In this document: positions 33,898 through 50,231 of the stretch, one piece after another
Layout of the letters: every line of letters starts with the position of its first letter
Position numbering within the stretch: position 1 is the stretch's first letter
IMG/VR virus record: IMGVR_UViG_3300035158_000222
Coordinates: 35,955 to 99,954 of that record
From: a virus
Reading direction: 5' to 3' (one strand)
DNA: 64,000 nucleotides
The notes under the pieces: generated by a model
Told to the model about the DNA's origin: nothing
Database searches by the model: none
What the model saw: only the letters and a program-made list of their open reading frames with translations
Position numbers and translations under genes: made by a program

Positions 33898-34485
33898 ATG
33901 AAAAAGATAAATGTAACAGTAAAAGGACTATGTCCTATTCTCCATGCTAGGCATCCTACTCCCAAAGAGGAAGCCGAGATACTAAAGCGCAAGTCAAATC
34001 CTAAGTTTAAGGTGAAGGACATGACCGACGAAGAAAAATTTGAGATGCATTCATATAAGGTAGCGAAGAAGTTTGTCCTACCTAGTGAGATGTTCGAGGC
34101 AACCATGGTAAAGGCTGCTGTTCAGGTTAAGATGGAAGGAAAGAAGACGTATAAGGATGCATTCAAGGGAGGGATAATAGTTAATCCGGAAATGATCCCA
34201 TTCAAAACACAGAAGGTAGTAATGAAAGACACTCCGCAGAAGGGTGCATGGTGGATGTTTGGTAAATGGGGCCGCAATCCGAGCACTCGTGGTGCTATGT
34301 GGATTGTTAGGCCAAGATTGGATGAATGGGAATTAGACTTTACTATAGATCTGCTCATGGATGAGCTGATCCCCGTCGATGTAGTAAAAGGCGTATTAAC
34401 ATTCGCAGGAATGTATATTGGAGTTGGTGCTTGGCGTCCGAAGTTCGGTCGCTTTGAGGTTACCAAGTTCAAGGTACAAAAGTAA
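33898..34485 (+). CDS. stand-alone RAMP/Cas7-like RNA-binding protein
   Basis: N-terminal strand INVTVKGLCPILH, then FVLPSEMFEATM (the iPgsslKG-like position), RPRLDEWELDFTI, and a C-terminal glycine-rich loop AGMYIGVGAWRPKFGRFEV. Motif recognition only. Confidence 0.7.
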   Translation: MKKINVTVKGLCPILHARHPTPKEEAEILKRKSNPKFKVKDMTDEEKFEMHSYKVAKKFVLPSEMFEATMVKAAVQVKMEGKKTYKDAFKGGIIVNPEMIPFKTQKVVMKDTPQKGAWWMFGKWGRNPSTRGAMWIVRPRLDEWELDFTIDLLMDELIPVDVVKGVLTFAGMYIGVGAWRPKFGRFEVTKFKVQK

Positions 34486-34487
34486 TT

Positions 34488-34787
34488 ATGTTTAGGAAAC
34501 CCAAAAAGGAACCTAAGACTAGGTTCGCTCCCGACAATCTTAAGACTCTGAAAGGCAGTGACATGATTCAAATGTCACGTGAGCTTCTCGACGCAGCCGT
34601 GCGTTCGACAGAGATACTTAAGCTTAAACCTGGAGAGATGACTCCTGAAAAATTGAAGGAGGCCAAAGTTGTTCTTGGCTATGTTAATGCTACGAATAAT
34701 GTCATGAAGACTAGGATAAATATCCTAAAGATGACTGGTATTCAAGCAAAATGCAAAGCTATCAAGAGCAAATCAAAATCACTTTAG
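34488..34787 (+). CDS. helical basic hypothetical protein between the RAMP-like gene and the array
   Basis: 99 aa, starts 2 bp after the RAMP-like gene and ends 6 bp before the array. Confidence 0.65.
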   Translation: MFRKPKKEPKTRFAPDNLKTLKGSDMIQMSRELLDAAVRSTEILKLKPGEMTPEKLKEAKVVLGYVNATNNVMKTRINILKMTGIQAKCKAIKSKSKSL

Positions 34788-34793
34788 GCACAT

Positions 34794-35202
34794 ACAGTAT
34801 AGCTTCTGAAGTTCAGTCAGGTTCAGTGCCGTAAACTGATGTTCAGTGGACTCAAGTAGCGTGATGTATAGTAATGCTTCTATAGTCCAGTTGTGTCTAG
34901 TATCGTATTGTGAACTGGTGTGAACTTTTGTCTTGCAAAGTGAAGTAATGTAATGCTTCTGCAGTTTAGTGGCGTGTTGTGGTCTAGTGTTGTGTGCAGT
35001 TCAGCAAAGTGATGTAGTTTAATGTACAGTAATGCTTCTTCAGTACAGCAAGGTGTTGTAAACTTGTGTTTTGTGGACTAGCGTAATGTGAAGTAAAGTA
35101 ATGCTTCTGAAGTCTTGTCTAGTTATGTCAACTAATCTGTTGTTCAGTGATGTGTTGTGAGGTGAACTAATGTAAAGTATAGATCGTAGATTTAACTACG
35201 AT
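34794..35202 (+). ncRNA. pentamer-periodic (NN-WGT) array of five units with AATGCTTCT linkers; candidate guide-RNA array
   Basis: Units 34808-34872, 34882-34951, 34961-35030, 35040-35099 and 35109-35178 (13, 14, 14, 12 and 14 pentamers). Linkers at 34873, 34952, 35031 and 35100, plus variant ATAGCTTCT at 34799. Terminal hairpin ATCGTAG/CTACGAT at 35183-35202. No long ORF. Confidence 0.8.
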
Positions 35203-38669: not shown

Positions 38670-39281
38670 ATGAAGAGTAACTTAAGAAGACTGCTCGAGG
38701 AATTTCTTCCTGATGATGTCATAGACAGTATTGAGCAGCGTGCTAAAGAGATGAGCTTAAAGACTGGTACGGTCAAGCCAAAAGGCAGAAAGGCAAAGCA
38801 GATGCAGAAGCTACTGGAAGCCCGTGGCAGACGCTGTCAAATATGCGGGACAGAAGATCGTCTTCTTACTATAGATCACATCATCCCGAAGCAGCTGCTT
38901 CTGGATATGGGTCTCGAAGATTTCTTCTGGGATGAAGATAACTTCGAACTGATGTGCAAGGAATGTAATGTGAAGAAGTCAAACAGATTGGACTTCGATA
39001 ATTCGAAGACCGTAGCTCTGTTGGAGAAATATCTTAAGCTCTTCAAAGCCAGGCAATATGAGTCATCGAAGAAAGATCCTGTCGCAGATCGACAAGATCA
39101 AGCAATCGAAGATACGATTCAAGAATCAGGGCGGGTTCGTCATGCATCTTTGGATGAAGACGAAAGAGAACCAGAACTACCTGATGGATCAACTTGTCAA
39201 AGCCATCCCACATGCGGAGGCAAAGGACAAGATTGTAATCATAGCAGTTCAGCGCCCGAATGTAATCCTCTCAAAGAATGA
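38670..39281 (+). CDS. HNH endonuclease
   Basis: CQICG...LTIDHIIPK...N...CKECNVKK. Confidence 0.85.
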   Translation: MKSNLRRLLEEFLPDDVIDSIEQRAKEMSLKTGTVKPKGRKAKQMQKLLEARGRRCQICGTEDRLLTIDHIIPKQLLLDMGLEDFFWDEDNFELMCKECNVKKSNRLDFDNSKTVALLEKYLKLFKARQYESSKKDPVADRQDQAIEDTIQESGRVRHASLDEDEREPELPDGSTCQSHPTCGGKGQDCNHSSSAPECNPLKE

Positions 39282-43505: not shown

Positions 43506-43853
43506 ATGGGAAGTAGAAAACAAATTCTCCCAGATAATATAGACCAGTCAAAGAACAACGAACATACTGTATATAAGATCGAGATTGGATATCACAAGCT
43601 CTGTACTACTGATAAGGAGGCAGCATTCAAGGTCTGGCAGGCACTAGCAGATAATTTCTTTGAACTCAAGGACCTGAATAGCGGCGACTATAGTGGACCT
43701 AGGTTCAATCATCGTGATCCGGTAAACGTGAAGCTAGCAGGAGAGAGAGAAAAGATCTGGGATTCTTATGAAGATGCCAAGCGGGCACACGTTGCCTACT
43801 CGGCACTAAAGCCTCAGCCTGGAAAAGAAAAGGCTGACGATTCAACATCATGA
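43506..43853 (+). CDS. hypothetical protein
   Basis: ORF between the AAA and vWA genes. Confidence 0.6.
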   Translation: MGSRKQILPDNIDQSKNNEHTVYKIEIGYHKLCTTDKEAAFKVWQALADNFFELKDLNSGDYSGPRFNHRDPVNVKLAGEREKIWDSYEDAKRAHVAYSALKPQPGKEKADDSTS

Positions 43854-45037
43854 ACATCGAAGATAGAATCAAGAAAGCCAAGATCTGGCTGATCACCAAA
43901 CGTCCATGGTTCGGCCAGCTATCTTGTTATGTCAATGAGATCAAGAATGATAAGATTCCTACTGCGGCGATAGATCTCAAAGGCAACATGTATTACAACC
44001 CGGAGTGGATGGATAGTCTTAAAGACGAAGAGTTAAGGGGAGTGCTCATGCATGAGATCCTGCACTTGGCATTCCTGCATATCCCGAGGTGTGGGGACAG
44101 GGATAAATTAATCTGGAATGTAGTGGCTGATCTGAAAGTTAACATGGAAATCATAAACGAGCATGGCGTGGATATTTCCAAGGAAGCAATCAGACCTAAC
44201 CGCAACAGTGATTCTGCTATCCTGGATAACCACACTATACGCAAGGTTTCTGATAAGACTGCAGAGAATGTCTATACTGAAGTTCGCAGGAAGATGAAGA
44301 GTGCACCATCTAACTATGTGCCTGATCTGATCATTGTTGCCAACACGCCGCAAGAGGAAGAGGATCTCAAGAAGAAAGGCTTCAAACCGGTGAAAGCCTC
44401 TCAAGCTGGCAAGCTCAGCAGGAACTGGCAGTCTCGTGTCTTTTCCGCCAGCCAAACAGCTAAAGGAGACATGCCAGAAGGAGTAAAGCGAGAGCTATTT
44501 AAACTCGAGCAAGGTGAACTCCCGTGGCACAACATCCTTAAGACTAGATTCAGGAAGCTTGCAGTCAAGCATTCCTGGAAGAAGCCGAGCAAACGGTATC
44601 TGCCCTGGTACTTCCCTGGACGTACAAGGAACGAGGGAATAAAGGTCGTCGGGGCAATCGATACTTCAGGTTCGATGAGCAAGGACCAGATATCTAAAGC
44701 AGTAAATGAACTGTATGGACTGACCAGAGCATTCCAATTCCTGGATCTATGGGTGATGGACTGTGATGCGGCAGTGTATAATACAAAGAAGACAAAGCAG
44801 CATGAGCTGGCCAACCTGATCCTGCAAGGCGGCGGAGGAACTGACTTCCGTCCTGTGTTTAACTGGATCAAGAAGGAGCTAAGCGATGATATTGACTGTC
44901 TTCTGTTCTTCACTGATCTCTATGGAGATTTTCCAGGGAAGAAGCCGCCGTACGAAACCTTCTGGATCACTGATACGAAGAATCATGATATCCCGTTTGG
45001 CCGCAAGCTGATGCTTGAGGGCGATATAGAAAACTAA
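43850..45037 (+). CDS. DUF2201-type metallopeptidase / vWA domain protein
   Basis: HEILH zincin motif, MIDAS IDTSGSM, GGGGTDFRP, FTD.YG. Confidence 0.9.
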   Translation: MNIEDRIKKAKIWLITKRPWFGQLSCYVNEIKNDKIPTAAIDLKGNMYYNPEWMDSLKDEELRGVLMHEILHLAFLHIPRCGDRDKLIWNVVADLKVNMEIINEHGVDISKEAIRPNRNSDSAILDNHTIRKVSDKTAENVYTEVRRKMKSAPSNYVPDLIIVANTPQEEEDLKKKGFKPVKASQAGKLSRNWQSRVFSASQTAKGDMPEGVKRELFKLEQGELPWHNILKTRFRKLAVKHSWKKPSKRYLPWYFPGRTRNEGIKVVGAIDTSGSMSKDQISKAVNELYGLTRAFQFLDLWVMDCDAAVYNTKKTKQHELANLILQGGGGTDFRPVFNWIKKELSDDIDCLLFFTDLYGDFPGKKPPYETFWITDTKNHDIPFGRKLMLEGDIEN

Positions 45038-47241: not shown

Positions 47242-47797
47242 ATACAAAGCGGAAGAGAAGAAGTTCTGGAACAGTAGCCAGAACCTAAATGTGTACAATC
47301 TTTTCGTCCAGGGTAAGGCGATAGTTGATATTGCAGGCACCCTGAAGATGCGCCCTGTAACTGTGGAAAAGATAATCACTAGGAGTTTTTTTGTCAAAAG
47401 ACTCGAGCATCACCTGCGTGGAGTCATGTTTACTACCCAGGTAGCACAGATACTGGCGAAGGACAACATCTTCTCTAAACTTTGGGAGCGAGTACGGGAT
47501 AATATCGAAGATATCCCGCCTGAGATTTGCTTAAAAGAACTAACCAAGCTCTTCCCTCAGAAGAAAGATGGATTAATAATCAATCCCAAGAACATGAACA
47601 TATTCATGAAGGTTATGCAGGATACTCCACCCGAGAAACTGGGTGAGAGGCTGGAAGAAATAGAGGACGACTTCGGTTTTGAGGGGCTGGATGAGGATGA
47701 CAAAGCTAAATATCCTGAGCTGGAAGGGCCTAAAGACGATGGTATCAAACAAGGGGATCCTGAAGTGGATCAAACAAAAACAAATAAGGACGAATAA
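47210..47797 (+). CDS. putative terminase small subunit
   Basis: HTH-like DIAGTLKMRPVTVEKII; lies immediately upstream of TerL. Confidence 0.5.
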   Translation: MSNPGDKALIKYKAEEKKFWNSSQNLNVYNLFVQGKAIVDIAGTLKMRPVTVEKIITRSFFVKRLEHHLRGVMFTTQVAQILAKDNIFSKLWERVRDNIEDIPPEICLKELTKLFPQKKDGLIINPKNMNIFMKVMQDTPPEKLGERLEEIEDDFGFEGLDEDDKAKYPELEGPKDDGIKQGDPEVDQTKTNKDE

Positions 47798-50231
47798 GGG
47801 TCTTCCGGTAGAGTTCAGAGACCACGGATTCCTCCTGGATTACGTGCGCGATCCGCACAACCGCATTGTTGTGCGTAAATGCACGCACCCAGATACAAGG
47901 GTTCTTAGGTCTGATCTTAAATGGGTTAAGATAAAGAATCTCAATAAAGGAGATTCTTTAGTGGGGATTACAGAGAGCGCACCATCTGGACGTGGAGCCA
48001 GAAGGAGGTTCGAAGATACTGTAGTGCTTGATAAGTGGATTACAAACAAGAGAGCATTTAAGATGACTCTCGAAGATGGAAGAAGTATAATAGTATCAGA
48101 GGATCATCTGTTCCTTGCAATGAAATCAAAAGGCAGGGCCGGTAACCAATATGACTGGCATGAGCTAAGAAATCTTGATCCCGGTGACTACGTTCGGGTA
48201 GTCTTTGATGTATGGGATGGTCCAAACTACGAATGTGGCTGGATAGCTGGCATACTTGATGGTGAAGGATCACTTAAGGTATCAAGGAAGTCCGGAGGAT
48301 CTGACCTGGTTATATCACAGAGACCCGGAATAGTGTCCGACAGGATAGATAGATACCTCAAGAGTCGTAAGTTCAAGTATCATGTACGTGATGATGATAA
48401 GCCAGATAGTAATGGTCCAGTACGTAGATTTGTTCTGTCCAGAACAAGTGAGATCATTAGGCTACTTGGCAAGACACAGCCATCAAGATGGATAGGAAAG
48501 AAGTTCTGGCTCACCATGGCACTTGGAATGGCAGGACCGAAATCAAAGATGAAGATAGCCTCGATAGAATCTGCCGGTAGAGCAGATCTTGTGGACATCG
48601 AGACAAGTAATCACACGTTTATAGCTGAGGGTATAGTCACTCACAACTGTACACAGGTGGGAGCATCCTTTTCCACTAACATAAAGATGCTGCACCTGGG
48701 AGACCAGGCGCCACTGACTACTATATACACATTGCCTACATCGTCCGAGGCCAAGAACTTCGTACTTACAAAGTTTGATCCCATGGTAGAGAGATCACCA
48801 GGACTTCTTGAGATGGTACAGAAAGTTATTCTCCGTGAGAAGATCCTATACAACAGCGTAGTTAAACGCATCGGGCCCAGCTATTACTTCTTCCGTGGAT
48901 CCTGGACCACGTGGGGCGCGCAGTCCATTGATGCTGACGTCCTCGTGGTAGACGAACTCGACTTCCAGAGAGAAGACGTAAGACAAATGTGGGAAGAGCG
49001 GACCGAGGGATCCGCATCGCAGGATATTATCTACTGGATTGGATATCCAAGCATTCCTAACTTCGGCATTGAAGAGCTGTATGATTCGTCCGATCAGCGC
49101 CACTGGTATATAGAATGCGGCCATTGCTTCAAGCGACAGACTCTTACATTCCCGGAAAATATAGACTTCGCTAAAGAAATCTTCCAATGCAAGTTCTGCG
49201 CCGGCGAACTGACGCCCGAGATGCGCCGAAGAGGAATATGGAAAGCCCACAAACCAGGCCGACAGATACACGGATACTGGATCAATAAGCTTATGGCCCC
49301 GTGGATAACAGCCCCTAAGATCATTCATAGATTTAAAAACGACACCCCAAAGAAGTTCCATAACTATACGCTGGGCCTACCATTCCAGGATAAAGAGACT
49401 GAGATTACTGACGAGGTAGTCGAAAGATCCCTAATGGAAGAGGACAAATACATGGCCTGCAAGAGAGATGAGAAAGCTAAGATAATCCTGGGCATTGACC
49501 AAGGTGATATCTTTCACATCCTGGTAGCCATTGCCCTACCGGATAGATTAGTAGTAGTAGGGGCCCACGAGGAGGATTCTGAAGATAAGCTTGAGAAGCG
49601 AATCAAGTTCTACAATCCTGATATGGTAGTCATGGATATGTTCCCCAACCGTCATACTGCCAAGAAGATGCGCAGAAAGATAGGGGAGAATAAGTTCTTC
49701 ATGGGTAAGGAGCGCAACTGGTCAGAGACGTCCAAGCAGCGTAACTATTGGAGCACTAACAGATCGATGGGTGAGATCGGCATAGAGAGGACTGAGTCTA
49801 TCGACGCCATGATGGAATACATCATGAAAGGCGCCATCAGATTCAGACGTTCTATTCCGAACTTACTGAGTAAGGACAAACATAACCCAGGTGTCATTCA
49901 ACATATTAGAAATCTGGTACCTGATACCCAGGAGCGTTTCGGTAAATTGCGCAGAGTTTGGAAGAAGACTGGCCCAGAGCACTACGCGCATTCACTGAAC
50001 TTCCTGGTTGTTGCCTGCCACACATTGTTTCCTGGCTGGCAGTCACGAGAGATGATAGTCCCATCCTCTGACTTACTGGCTGTACCAAAGCCTAAGCCAT
50101 GGTACGTTAAGGATTTCGAACGAAGGACTAGATCACTATCGGGAAATGACACTGTCATTATCCCACAGGGGAGCGACCCCGTGGAGCCCGAGGACATAGT
50201 TCCGAGGAATCCAGGTGATATTTATTGCTAA
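47739..50231 (+). CDS. terL: terminase large subunit (lambda gpA family) with intein
   Basis: Walker A (V)RK|CTQVGAS split by the intein, Walker B LVVDELD, CGHC/CKFC zinc ribbon, nuclease LGIDQG, EHYAHS. Confidence 0.9.
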   Translation: MVSNKGILKWIKQKQIRTNKGLPVEFRDHGFLLDYVRDPHNRIVVRKCTHPDTRVLRSDLKWVKIKNLNKGDSLVGITESAPSGRGARRRFEDTVVLDKWITNKRAFKMTLEDGRSIIVSEDHLFLAMKSKGRAGNQYDWHELRNLDPGDYVRVVFDVWDGPNYECGWIAGILDGEGSLKVSRKSGGSDLVISQRPGIVSDRIDRYLKSRKFKYHVRDDDKPDSNGPVRRFVLSRTSEIIRLLGKTQPSRWIGKKFWLTMALGMAGPKSKMKIASIESAGRADLVDIETSNHTFIAEGIVTHNCTQVGASFSTNIKMLHLGDQAPLTTIYTLPTSSEAKNFVLTKFDPMVERSPGLLEMVQKVILREKILYNSVVKRIGPSYYFFRGSWTTWGAQSIDADVLVVDELDFQREDVRQMWEERTEGSASQDIIYWIGYPSIPNFGIEELYDSSDQRHWYIECGHCFKRQTLTFPENIDFAKEIFQCKFCAGELTPEMRRRGIWKAHKPGRQIHGYWINKLMAPWITAPKIIHRFKNDTPKKFHNYTLGLPFQDKETEITDEVVERSLMEEDKYMACKRDEKAKIILGIDQGDIFHILVAIALPDRLVVVGAHEEDSEDKLEKRIKFYNPDMVVMDMFPNRHTAKKMRRKIGENKFFMGKERNWSETSKQRNYWSTNRSMGEIGIERTESIDAMMEYIMKGAIRFRRSIPNLLSKDKHNPGVIQHIRNLVPDTQERFGKLRRVWKKTGPEHYAHSLNFLVVACHTLFPGWQSREMIVPSSDLLAVPKPKPWYVKDFERRTRSLSGNDTVIIPQGSDPVEPEDIVPRNPGDIYC
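47880..48647 (+). mobile_element. intein (256 aa) with a LAGLIDADG motif in the TerL Walker A
   Basis: Starts CTHPDTRV, block B VSEDHLF, WIAGILDGEGS, ends LVDIET.NHTFIAEGIVTHN followed by Cys. Confidence 0.92.

What the first reader, a model, noticed from the sequence alone, without database searches (positions are those of the whole stretch)
34794..35183. Grammar of the array: 67 modules of variable NN plus a constrained triplet, with the dinucleotide strings extracted
Seen (hand count): position 5 is a pyrimidine in 67/67 modules (T in 64). Triplets are AGT 23, TGT 22, ACT 8, CGT 5, GGT 3, TCT 2, AGC 2, TGC 1 and TTT 1, while positions 1-2 vary freely. The 9-nt linker (5+4) resets the phase by one base for each unit. 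NN strings: U1 GA TC CA TC GC AA GA TC GG CA AG GA AT; U2 AT CC TG CT AT AT GA GG GA TT CT AA GA AA; U3 GC TT GG GT GG AG TG GC TC AA GA AG AA AC; U4 TC AC AA GT AA TG TT GG AG AA GA AA; U5 GA CT CT TA CA AA GT TC GA GT GA GA AA AA. The units differ from one another at NN, so this is not a decayed satellite, but all drift to A/G-rich NN in the last 3-4 modules. Inference: about 10 informative dinucleotides per unit form a gapped address. If every third target base is skipped, recognition could be insensitive to codon-wobble mutation.
Basis: partly seen in the sequence, partly recalled or inferred. Interest (0 to 1): 0.85.

Follow-up and report, generated by a model that had tools for sequence, protein, structure and literature searches.

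The report
VIPR guide-RNA array in a phage
The 390-base array encodes five guide RNAs of a VIPR system, a phage RNA-guided DNA-silencing system first described in 2026 preprints, and one guide matches, codon by codon with the wobble base skipped, a conserved motif in the integrase genes of prophages of Patescibacteria (candidate phyla radiation, CPR).

Summary

It is also already published. The gene just upstream (33898-34485) is a Vipr protein: profile hit to PDB 36pp "SUSP1 Vipr protein", E=1.4e-24, with a Cas7/Csm3-like fold. Three 2026 bioRxiv preprints describe VIPR: Vipr coats vrRNAs made of GGY/NN pentamers, and the NN bases pair with DNA while skipping every third base.

- **Guide 1, modules 1-10, 1-nt skip:** 7 exact hits in viral contigs and more than 120 in prokaryote genomes (about 1 expected). 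All 87 examined are in frame on RESHSAK(D/E)SGQ of a large serine recombinase, with the skipped base at wobble. 55 of 59 taxon-labelled hits are Patescibacteria.
- **Guides 2-5:** no convincing target.

What differs from SUSP1:
- The first G of GGY is relaxed to A/T, and both SUSP1 residues that read that G (H17, D177) are Ala in this clade.
- The ~40-nt tail is replaced by a 9-nt handle.

This is a new member of a known kind.

The parts
33898..34485 (+). vipr gene: 195-aa minimal RAMP (Cas7-like) protein, the predicted vrRNA-binding filament subunit
   Evidence: The profile of 30 homologs hits PDB 36pp_D 'SUSP1 Vipr protein' at E=1.4e-24. hhalign to SUSP1 Vipr gives probability 99.5%, E=3e-22. 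The AF2 model (pLDDT 86) has as top Foldseek hits type VII Cas7 and Csm3. It matches phrog_4652 and no Pfam family.
34488..34787 (+). candidate vap (vipr-accessory) gene: 99-aa basic helical protein
   Evidence: It starts 2 bp after vipr and ends 6 bp before the array. Homologs sit at the same place in L111-L115 and L123, and there is one database homolog, P0097. AF2 predicts a three-helix bundle at pLDDT 68 with no significant fold match. Its role is inferred from position only.
34794..34807 (+). array leader ending in the first copy of the handle (ATAGCTTCT)
   Evidence: Sequence read.
34808..34872 (+). vrRNA unit 1, 13 pentamers. Modules 1-10 (or 11) form the guide against a large serine recombinase motif.
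34873..34881 (+). 9-nt linker/handle AATGCTTCT. Identical copies lie at 34952-34960, 35031-35039 and 35100-35108.
   Evidence: The GCTT(C/T)T core is conserved in arrays of relatives L111-L113, whose Vipr is about 55% identical.
34882..34951 (+). vrRNA unit 2, 14 pentamers; target not found
34961..35030 (+). vrRNA unit 3, 14 pentamers; target not found
35040..35099 (+). vrRNA unit 4, 12 pentamers; only chance-level hits
35109..35178 (+). vrRNA unit 5, 14 pentamers; one unreplicated 20/22 match in an rpoC gene
35183..35202 (+). 7-bp hairpin closing the array, possibly a 3' end or cap. It is not a canonical terminator on the + strand.

Best explanation
The array is the guide-RNA (vrRNA) array of a VIPR system (Viral Interference Programmable Repeat) carried by an uncultivated phage of about 100 kb. 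It is probably transcribed with the upstream vipr and vap-like genes and cut at or near the 9-nt GCTTCT handles into five vrRNAs. One Vipr protomer binds each pentamer, holding the constant W-G-Y bases and presenting the two variable bases. Those dinucleotides pair with one strand of double-stranded DNA while every third target base is skipped, and the bound filament blocks transcription. Guide 1 is aimed at codon positions 1-2 of the conserved peptide ESHSAK(D/E)SGQ in the catalytic domain of large serine recombinases (integrases) of temperate phages resident in Patescibacteria. Silencing would keep a competing prophage or satellite from excising, as shown experimentally for phage SUSP1. Shown here: protein homology and fold, array anatomy, conservation of the module in relatives, the target match and its codon phase, and the absence of self-targets. 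Inferred: transcription and processing, filament formation, silencing, and the biological outcome.
For: 1. Vipr identity: PDB 36pp_D 'SUSP1 Vipr protein' E=1.4e-24; hhalign probability 99.5%; Cas7/Csm3-like fold.
2. Repeat grammar: 12-14 pentamers per unit, within the published 9-16, with NN hypervariable (paper, which also list YNNNG variants).
3. The module is conserved: 43 of 69 full-length vipr loci in IMG/VR carry a period-5 array within 1.5 kb, against 3 of 104 control loci. The closest relatives share vipr, a ~100-aa ORF and an array with the GCTT(C/T)T handle but different NN.
4. Target: guide 1 under the 1-nt skip rule gave 7 exact 20/20 hits in viral contigs, while the other four guides gave 0. 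It gave more than 120 hits in 596 Gb of genomes, where about 1 is expected. All 87 examined are in frame on RESHSAK[DE]SGQRPV[FY], with the skipped base at wobble showing all four bases. The gene has Resolvase, Recombinase and Zn_ribbon_recom domains. One element also carries TerL, TerS and an anti-repressor.
5. In 120 evenly sampled Patescibacteria genomes, 10 have a match with 2 or fewer mismatches: 15 places against 1 for the reversed-pattern control.
6. Skip lengths 0, 2 and 3 give only background in the same loci. These loci were picked by skip-1 hits, so this is a weak control.
7. There is no self-target in the 99,954-bp genome, as the paper reports.
8. The guide has the sense of the mRNA, so it cannot act as an antisense RNA; a DNA target is implied.
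9. The array RNA is no more structured than shuffles (z=0.06), as expected for a protein-coated guide.
10. Published precedent: SUSP1 vrRNA4 silences a satellite's excision recombinase.
Against: - Only one of five guides has a convincing target. My searches needed exact matches or 3 or fewer mismatches, and they covered few phages of these hosts.
- The constant triplet is WGY, not GGY.
- There is no ~40-nt structured tail like SUSP1's, so vrRNA ends and processing are unknown.
- No sigma-70-like promoter was found on the + strand.
- No expression or binding data exist for this phage.
- The host is inferred only from where the targets and the Vipr homologs lie.
- The vap assignment rests on position alone.
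Confidence: 0.9

Rival explanations
1. The array makes an RNA that only binds or titrates a ring- or filament-forming protein with a 5-nt step (TRAP-like or sponge-like), with no guide function. On this view the NN bases are unconstrained spacers.
For: Five-base periodicity with a constrained triplet resembles TRAP sites (own knowledge). Four of five units have no identified target.
Against: Unit 1's NN string matches one protein-coding motif more than 120 times, in frame, with the gaps on wobble. Unconstrained spacers would not do that. The adjacent protein is a Vipr homolog, not TRAP.
Confidence: 0.03
2. Some or all units act as decoy or anti-VIPR RNAs: they redirect or target rival phages' VIPR systems rather than silencing prophage genes, as described for satellite-borne and solo vrRNAs.
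For: The second preprint reports solo vrRNAs that redirect VIPR to decoys or target relatives' vipr genes (abstract). Units 2-5 lack targets here.
Against: The array sits next to its own vipr gene. Units 1-5 gave nothing above shuffled-guide level in the 82 vipr loci and 104 control loci held. Unit 1 has a clear recombinase target.
Confidence: 0.05
3. The array is a DNA-level element, such as a replication origin, a packaging site or phased protein-binding DNA.
For: In relative L109 an array lies directly upstream of a terminase large-subunit gene.
Against: In the window TerL is 12.5 kb away. A 5-bp step puts successive sites on opposite faces of duplex DNA. The strand is always that of vipr. 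The homologous SUSP1 arrays are shown to be expressed RNAs bound by Vipr.
Confidence: 0.01
4. The array is a decayed satellite repeat or a translated region with no function of its own.
For: None beyond the repetitiveness.
Against: There is no ORF of 40 aa or more on either strand. The conserved positions stay conserved while NN differs completely between units and between relatives. Period-5 information is far above the genome background.
Confidence: 0.01

Closest known systems
Type II VIPR of Escherichia phage SUSP1 (bioRxiv 10.64898/2026.04.26.720920, .720927 and 2026.10.15.759431; PDB 36pp)
   Same: Both have a homologous ~195-aa Vipr followed by a small accessory ORF and an array of pentamer-repeat guide RNAs on the same strand. 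Repeat counts per guide are similar (12-14 here, 9-16 published). NN is variable, targets follow the 1-nt skip rule with the skip at wobble, one guide is aimed at a recombinase of a resident mobile element, and there is no self-targeting. The G2 and Y3 contact residues (R138, W178, R179) are conserved.
   Different: Vipr identity is only 24%. The constant triplet is WGY rather than GGY, and both G1-reading residues are replaced (H17 to A17, D177 to A178). Units are joined by a 9-nt handle instead of a 5' hairpin leader plus a ~40-nt pseudoknotted tail. The accessory protein has no detectable similarity in cultured phages. The host is probably Patescibacteria rather than E. coli. The target is a large serine recombinase of full temperate phages as well as other elements. 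The footprint is about 30 bp, against 18 bp for SUSP1 vrRNA4.
Class 1 CRISPR-Cas backbone (Cas7/Csm3 filament on crRNA)
   Same: The RAMP fold is shared (Foldseek E about 5e-6 to type VII Cas7 and Csm3). One subunit binds per fixed step of guide RNA, and a thumb periodically breaks guide-target pairing.
   Different: There is no repeat-spacer array and no cas1/cas2 or other cas genes nearby. The step is 5 nt with only 2 paired bases, rather than 6 nt with 5 paired. Guides are hard-wired in the phage genome rather than acquired.
TRAP (trp RNA-binding attenuation protein) binding sites
   Same: Both show triplets repeated with 2-3-nt spacers, giving a period of about 5 nt. This rests on my own knowledge and was not tested here.
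   Different: No TRAP-like protein is present. The spacers carry sequence information that matches a target. There are five tandem units with a conserved handle.

Membership tests
VIPR system | A Vipr protein: a minimal RAMP homologous to SUSP1 Vipr | tested here: met
   Profile against the PDB: 36pp_D 'SUSP1 Vipr protein' E=1.4e-24, residues 1-173 of 180. hhalign probability 99.5%, E=3e-22, 169 columns.
VIPR system | RAMP architecture: RRM core, glycine-rich loop and thumb | tested here: met
   The AF2 model has pLDDT 86. The top 38 Foldseek hits at E<=1e-3 are almost all Cas7/Csm3 chains. The C-terminal G-loop G.G..RPKFGRF is conserved in the family, and the thumb arginine R138 is invariant.
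VIPR system | vrRNAs made of 9-16 tandem pentamers with a constant GGY (or related) triplet alternating with hypervariable NN | tested here: met
   There are 12-14 pentamers per unit. The Y position is pyrimidine in 67/67 and the G2 position is G in 56/67. The G1 position is A/T in 59/67, which corresponds to the 'YNNNG' variant the paper mentions.
VIPR system | Protein residues that read the constant triplet | tested here: inconclusive
   The G2 and Y3 contacts are kept (R138, W179, R180). The G1 contacts are lost (A17 for H17, A178 for D177). Across 84 loci, an Asp at this G-loop position goes with G1=G in nearly all cases, and the Ala clade has G1 mostly A/T. Exceptions are L115, L116 and L153. 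This is consistent with a relaxed first position, but it rests on alignment only.
VIPR system | A conserved 3' tail capping each vrRNA | tested here: inconclusive
   No ~40-nt structured tail is present. Instead there is a 9-nt handle conserved in relatives, plus 2-3 A/G-rich modules that do not pair with the target. The paper says array architectures vary between types.
VIPR system | An adjacent vap accessory gene | tested here: inconclusive
   A conserved 99-aa helical ORF lies between vipr and the array. It has no fold or family match.
VIPR system | Natural targets under the 1-nt skip rule, in coding DNA with the skip at wobble | tested here: met
   Met for unit 1 only: 7 hits in viral contigs and more than 120 in genomes, with all 87 examined in frame. 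Units 2-5 found no convincing target.
VIPR system | No self-targeting | tested here: met
   The best matches in the phage's own 99,954-bp genome are at shuffled-guide level for skips 0-3.
VIPR system | vrRNA expression, Vipr-vrRNA complex formation and transcriptional silencing | not testable with these tools
   This needs small-RNA sequencing, pull-down and reporter assays.
CRISPR-Cas | A repeat-spacer array with contiguous spacers, and an adaptation module (cas1/cas2) | tested here: not met
   The array is pentamer-coded, and the flanking ORFs have no Cas family hits in Pfam or PHROGs.

The most novel reading that the evidence does not exclude
This locus may represent a distinct VIPR subtype of phages infecting Patescibacteria (CPR bacteria). 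Loss of the two G1-reading residues (H17 and D177 to Ala) would have relaxed the constant triplet from GGY to WGY, and the long structured tail would be replaced by a 9-nt handle with an unknown processing route. One hard-wired guide reads a motif so conserved that it could silence the integrases of prophages across much of the phylum. That would be the first evidence of RNA-guided warfare between viruses of CPR bacteria, and a natural example that the 'constant' part of the VIPR code can itself be re-specified.
Probability: 0.4. Interest if true: 0.6.

Novelty: new member of a known kind. Interest (0 to 1): 0.45.

Why it matters
- It shows that a reader working from raw sequence alone can recover the VIPR code, and that the code predicts a target in uncultivated viruses.
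- The target points to a likely host group, Patescibacteria, for an orphan 100-kb phage.
- It extends the published strategy of freezing a rival by silencing its recombinase from E. coli satellites to prophages of CPR bacteria.
- The pairing of Ala substitutions at both G1-reading positions with a WGY repeat gives a testable rule for how Vipr reads its constant triplet. That rule would be useful for engineering orthogonal VIPR tools.
- Many recombinase genes encode the module-2 serine with AGY instead of TCN, which suggests the one synonymous escape route left open by a wobble-skipping guide.

Tried and rejected
- Tandem Repeats Finder found nothing and Rfam gave only a chance miRNA hit.
- blastn of the locus against cultured phages found nothing.
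- Searching the linker plus two GT steps in IMG/VR gave 104 single, unrelated chance hits.
- My early ideas were a TRAP-like ring-binding RNA, a pac site or origin, or primase sites. I dropped them once the Vipr hit appeared.
- Guide searches without a convincing target:
  - Units 2-5 as exact 10-module patterns in viral contigs: 0 hits.
  - Unit 3, 11 modules, in metagenomes: 0 hits.
  - Unit 4, 9 modules, in metagenomes: 14 heterogeneous hits at chance level.
  - Unit 2, 12 modules, 3 or fewer mismatches, in 401 Patescibacteria genomes: 0 hits.
  - Units 3-5 in five genomes that carry unit-1 targets: only one hit, unit 5 matching 20/22 in an rpoC gene with the skip on codon position 1. It was not seen in 100 other genomes of the same order, so I treat it as probable chance.
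  - Units 2-5 in the ±4-kb neighbourhoods of 87 unit-1 targets, and units 1-5 in 82 vipr loci plus 104 control loci: shuffled-guide level.
- The fold search of the vap model gave nothing.
- No supplementary files of the preprint are held, so I could not assign a VIPR type (I-VII).

Full report
**1. The observation**

The region 34794-35183 lies in a 458-bp gap with no ORF of 40 aa or more on either strand.
- There are five units of 13, 14, 14, 12 and 14 pentamers.
- The triplets are AGT 23, TGT 22, ACT 8, CGT 5, GGT 3, TCT 2, AGC 2, TGC 1 and TTT 1.
- Position 5 is a pyrimidine in 67/67, and positions 1-2 vary.
- The linkers are AATGCTTCT four times, plus ATAGCTTCT before unit 1. Successive units start 4 mod 5 apart, so the phase shifts by one base per unit.

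A period-5 information scan peaks here and nowhere else in the window or in the 99,954-bp genome. Tandem Repeats Finder and Rfam see nothing.

**2. Context**

The window is the right-hand 64 kb of an IMG/VR virus record of 99,954 bp. It carries 15 tRNA genes, a terminase large subunit at 47679-50231 and a 5943-aa ORF.

Two genes lie directly upstream of the array, on the same strand:
- a 195-aa gene (33898-34485; phrog_4652, no Pfam family);
- a 99-aa gene (34488-34787).

**3. The array and the protein travel together**

The 195-aa protein has about 95 database homologs. An alignment of 30 of them (A1) retrieved 80 loci from IMG/VR.

A period-5 scan found pentamer arrays (NNGGT, NNGGC, NNGGA, NNWGT) on the gene's strand, usually just downstream. 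At a threshold of 5 bits, 43 of 69 full-length loci have an array within 1.5 kb, against 3 of 104 unrelated viral control loci.

The nearest relatives in IMG/VR (L111-L113, Vipr about 55% identical) show the same layout. They have vipr, a ~100-aa homolog of the 99-aa ORF, and an array whose units are joined by NNN-GCTT(C/T)T, with entirely different NN strings.

**4. Identity**

- The A1 profile hits PDB entry 36pp, 'SUSP1 Vipr protein', at E=1.4e-24.
- hhalign against the SUSP1 gene product gives probability 99.5%.
- The AF2 model (pLDDT 86) matches Cas7 of type VII CRISPR and Csm3.

Three bioRxiv preprints from 2026 describe these VIPR systems.
- Vipr is a minimal RAMP. vrRNAs consist of 9-16 YNNGG pentamers plus a 3' tail. 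The NN dinucleotides pair with double-stranded DNA under a 1-nt skip rule, and the skipped base usually falls on codon wobble. Binding silences transcription. Seven types exist, with variant repeats (NNNGG, YNNNG, NNNNG) and variant array architectures (10.64898/2026.04.26.720920).
- Cryo-EM shows one protomer per repeat. G1 is read by H17 and D177, G2 by R138 and W178, and Y3 sits in a pocket that includes R179 (10.64898/2026.04.26.720927).
- SUSP1 uses one guide to silence the excision recombinase of a satellite (10.64898/2026.10.15.759431).

**5. Target test**

I wrote each unit's first ten dinucleotides as NNxNNx... and scanned IMG/VR. Unit 1 gave 7 exact hits. Units 2-5 gave none.

About one is expected by chance, from 2 x 596e9 / 4^20.

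All 87 hits I examined have these features:
- They are in frame on RESHSAK(D/E)SGQRPV(F/Y).
- The skipped base is always the third codon position, and all four bases occur there at four-fold sites.
- Modules 12-13 do not match. Module 11 (AG) matches only where Arg is AGA.

The effective guide is therefore 10-11 modules, and the A/G-rich 3' modules behave as part of the handle.

The gene is a ~445-aa large serine recombinase with Resolvase, Recombinase and Zn_ribbon_recom domains. One carrier, L197, also encodes TerL, TerS, an anti-repressor, ParB-like proteins and methyltransferases, so it is a temperate phage.

Of the first 80 genome hits, 55 of the 59 with a taxon label are Patescibacteria, including Saccharibacteria, Paceibacterota and Parcubacteria.

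In an even sample of 120 Patescibacteria genomes, 10 carry a site with 2 or fewer mismatches. That is 15 places, against 1 for the reversed-pattern control. Eight of the 15 differ only because the serine at module 2 is coded AGY rather than TCN.

The guide is sense-identical to the mRNA, so the target must be DNA, not the transcript. The phage's own genome has no target.

**6. What differs from SUSP1**

- Vipr is only 24% identical to the SUSP1 clade, and no cultured phage has anything closer.
- The constant triplet is WGY. In the alignment, both G1-reading residues are Ala here (A17, A178), while the G2 and Y3 residues are kept (R138, W179, R180).
- Across 84 loci, Asp at this G-loop position goes with G at G1 in nearly every array (0.83-1.0). 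The Ala clade has mostly A/T at G1. L115, L116 and L153 are exceptions. This structure-based rationale is inferred, not tested.
- SUSP1 vrRNAs are separated by a hairpin leader and a ~40-nt tail. Here only 9 nt separate the units.
- The array RNA is no more structured than shuffles (z=0.06). It ends in a 7-bp hairpin at 35183-35202.
- The 99-aa ORF is a predicted three-helix bundle with no fold match. Its role as a vap is positional inference.

**7. Limits**

Units 2-5 have no convincing target; the searches and their results are listed under Tried and rejected. The unit-5 match of 20/22 in an rpoC gene of one Paceibacterota genome has its skip on codon position 1. It is absent from 100 other genomes of that order, so it is probably chance.

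My searches were exact or allowed at most 3 mismatches. The preprint accepted 80% NN identity. The VIPR type could not be assigned because no supplements are held.

**8. Verdict**

This is a real, functional-looking VIPR locus. It is a new member, with a G1-relaxed repeat, a minimal handle and a predicted pan-Patescibacteria integrase target.

An earlier first-stage note of this scan (e1-5988622) had already called the same locus a RAMP-plus-pentamer-array guide system.

Noticed in passing
L111:4012-4085: A tRNA-Gln(TTG) gene sits inside the vrRNA array of a relative, between two pentamer units. RNase P/Z cutting could release the flanking vrRNAs, much as the hammerhead-interspersed arrays in the preprint would.
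   Followed up: partly
L109:297-470: 35 uninterrupted GGTNN pentamers with no visible linker lie directly between a vipr gene and a terminase large-subunit gene. This may be the 'staggered array' architecture mentioned in the preprint.
   Followed up: no
L110:600-1030: The array units of a distant relative are separated by three copies of a ~35-nt GC-rich hairpin (CCTC..GGGGCGATCAC.TTCAAA..GAGGGGG). This tail-like element is unlike both the SUSP1 tail and the 9-nt handle here.
   Followed up: no
Patescibacteria genomes G026, G027, G054, G066, G079, G103 and G001:C2:195444-195472: Many recombinase copies encode one serine of the motif (module 2 in the sampled genomes, module 4 in G001) with AGY instead of TCN. 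This costs the guide two matches while keeping the protein unchanged, and it is the one synonymous escape route from a wobble-skipping guide.
   Followed up: partly
L339:1501-1532 (G002:C9:14084-14115): Unit 5 matches 20 of 22 read bases inside the RNA polymerase beta-prime (rpoC) gene of one Paceibacterota genome, with the skip on codon position 1. It is not seen in 100 other genomes of the same order, so it is probably chance.
   Followed up: yes
L172-L174, L181-L190: A group of 13 loci with partial Vipr-like matches (G-loop GLGTWRP) shows no detectable period-5 array within 1.5 kb.
   Followed up: no
window 47679-50231: The terminase large subunit ORF is 850 aa, but the PHROG terminase match covers only residues 311-789. 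An N-terminal extension of about 310 aa is unexplained.
   Followed up: no
window 38670-39281 and 43850-45037: Two HNH endonuclease genes lie in the early/replication block downstream of the VIPR locus.
   Followed up: no
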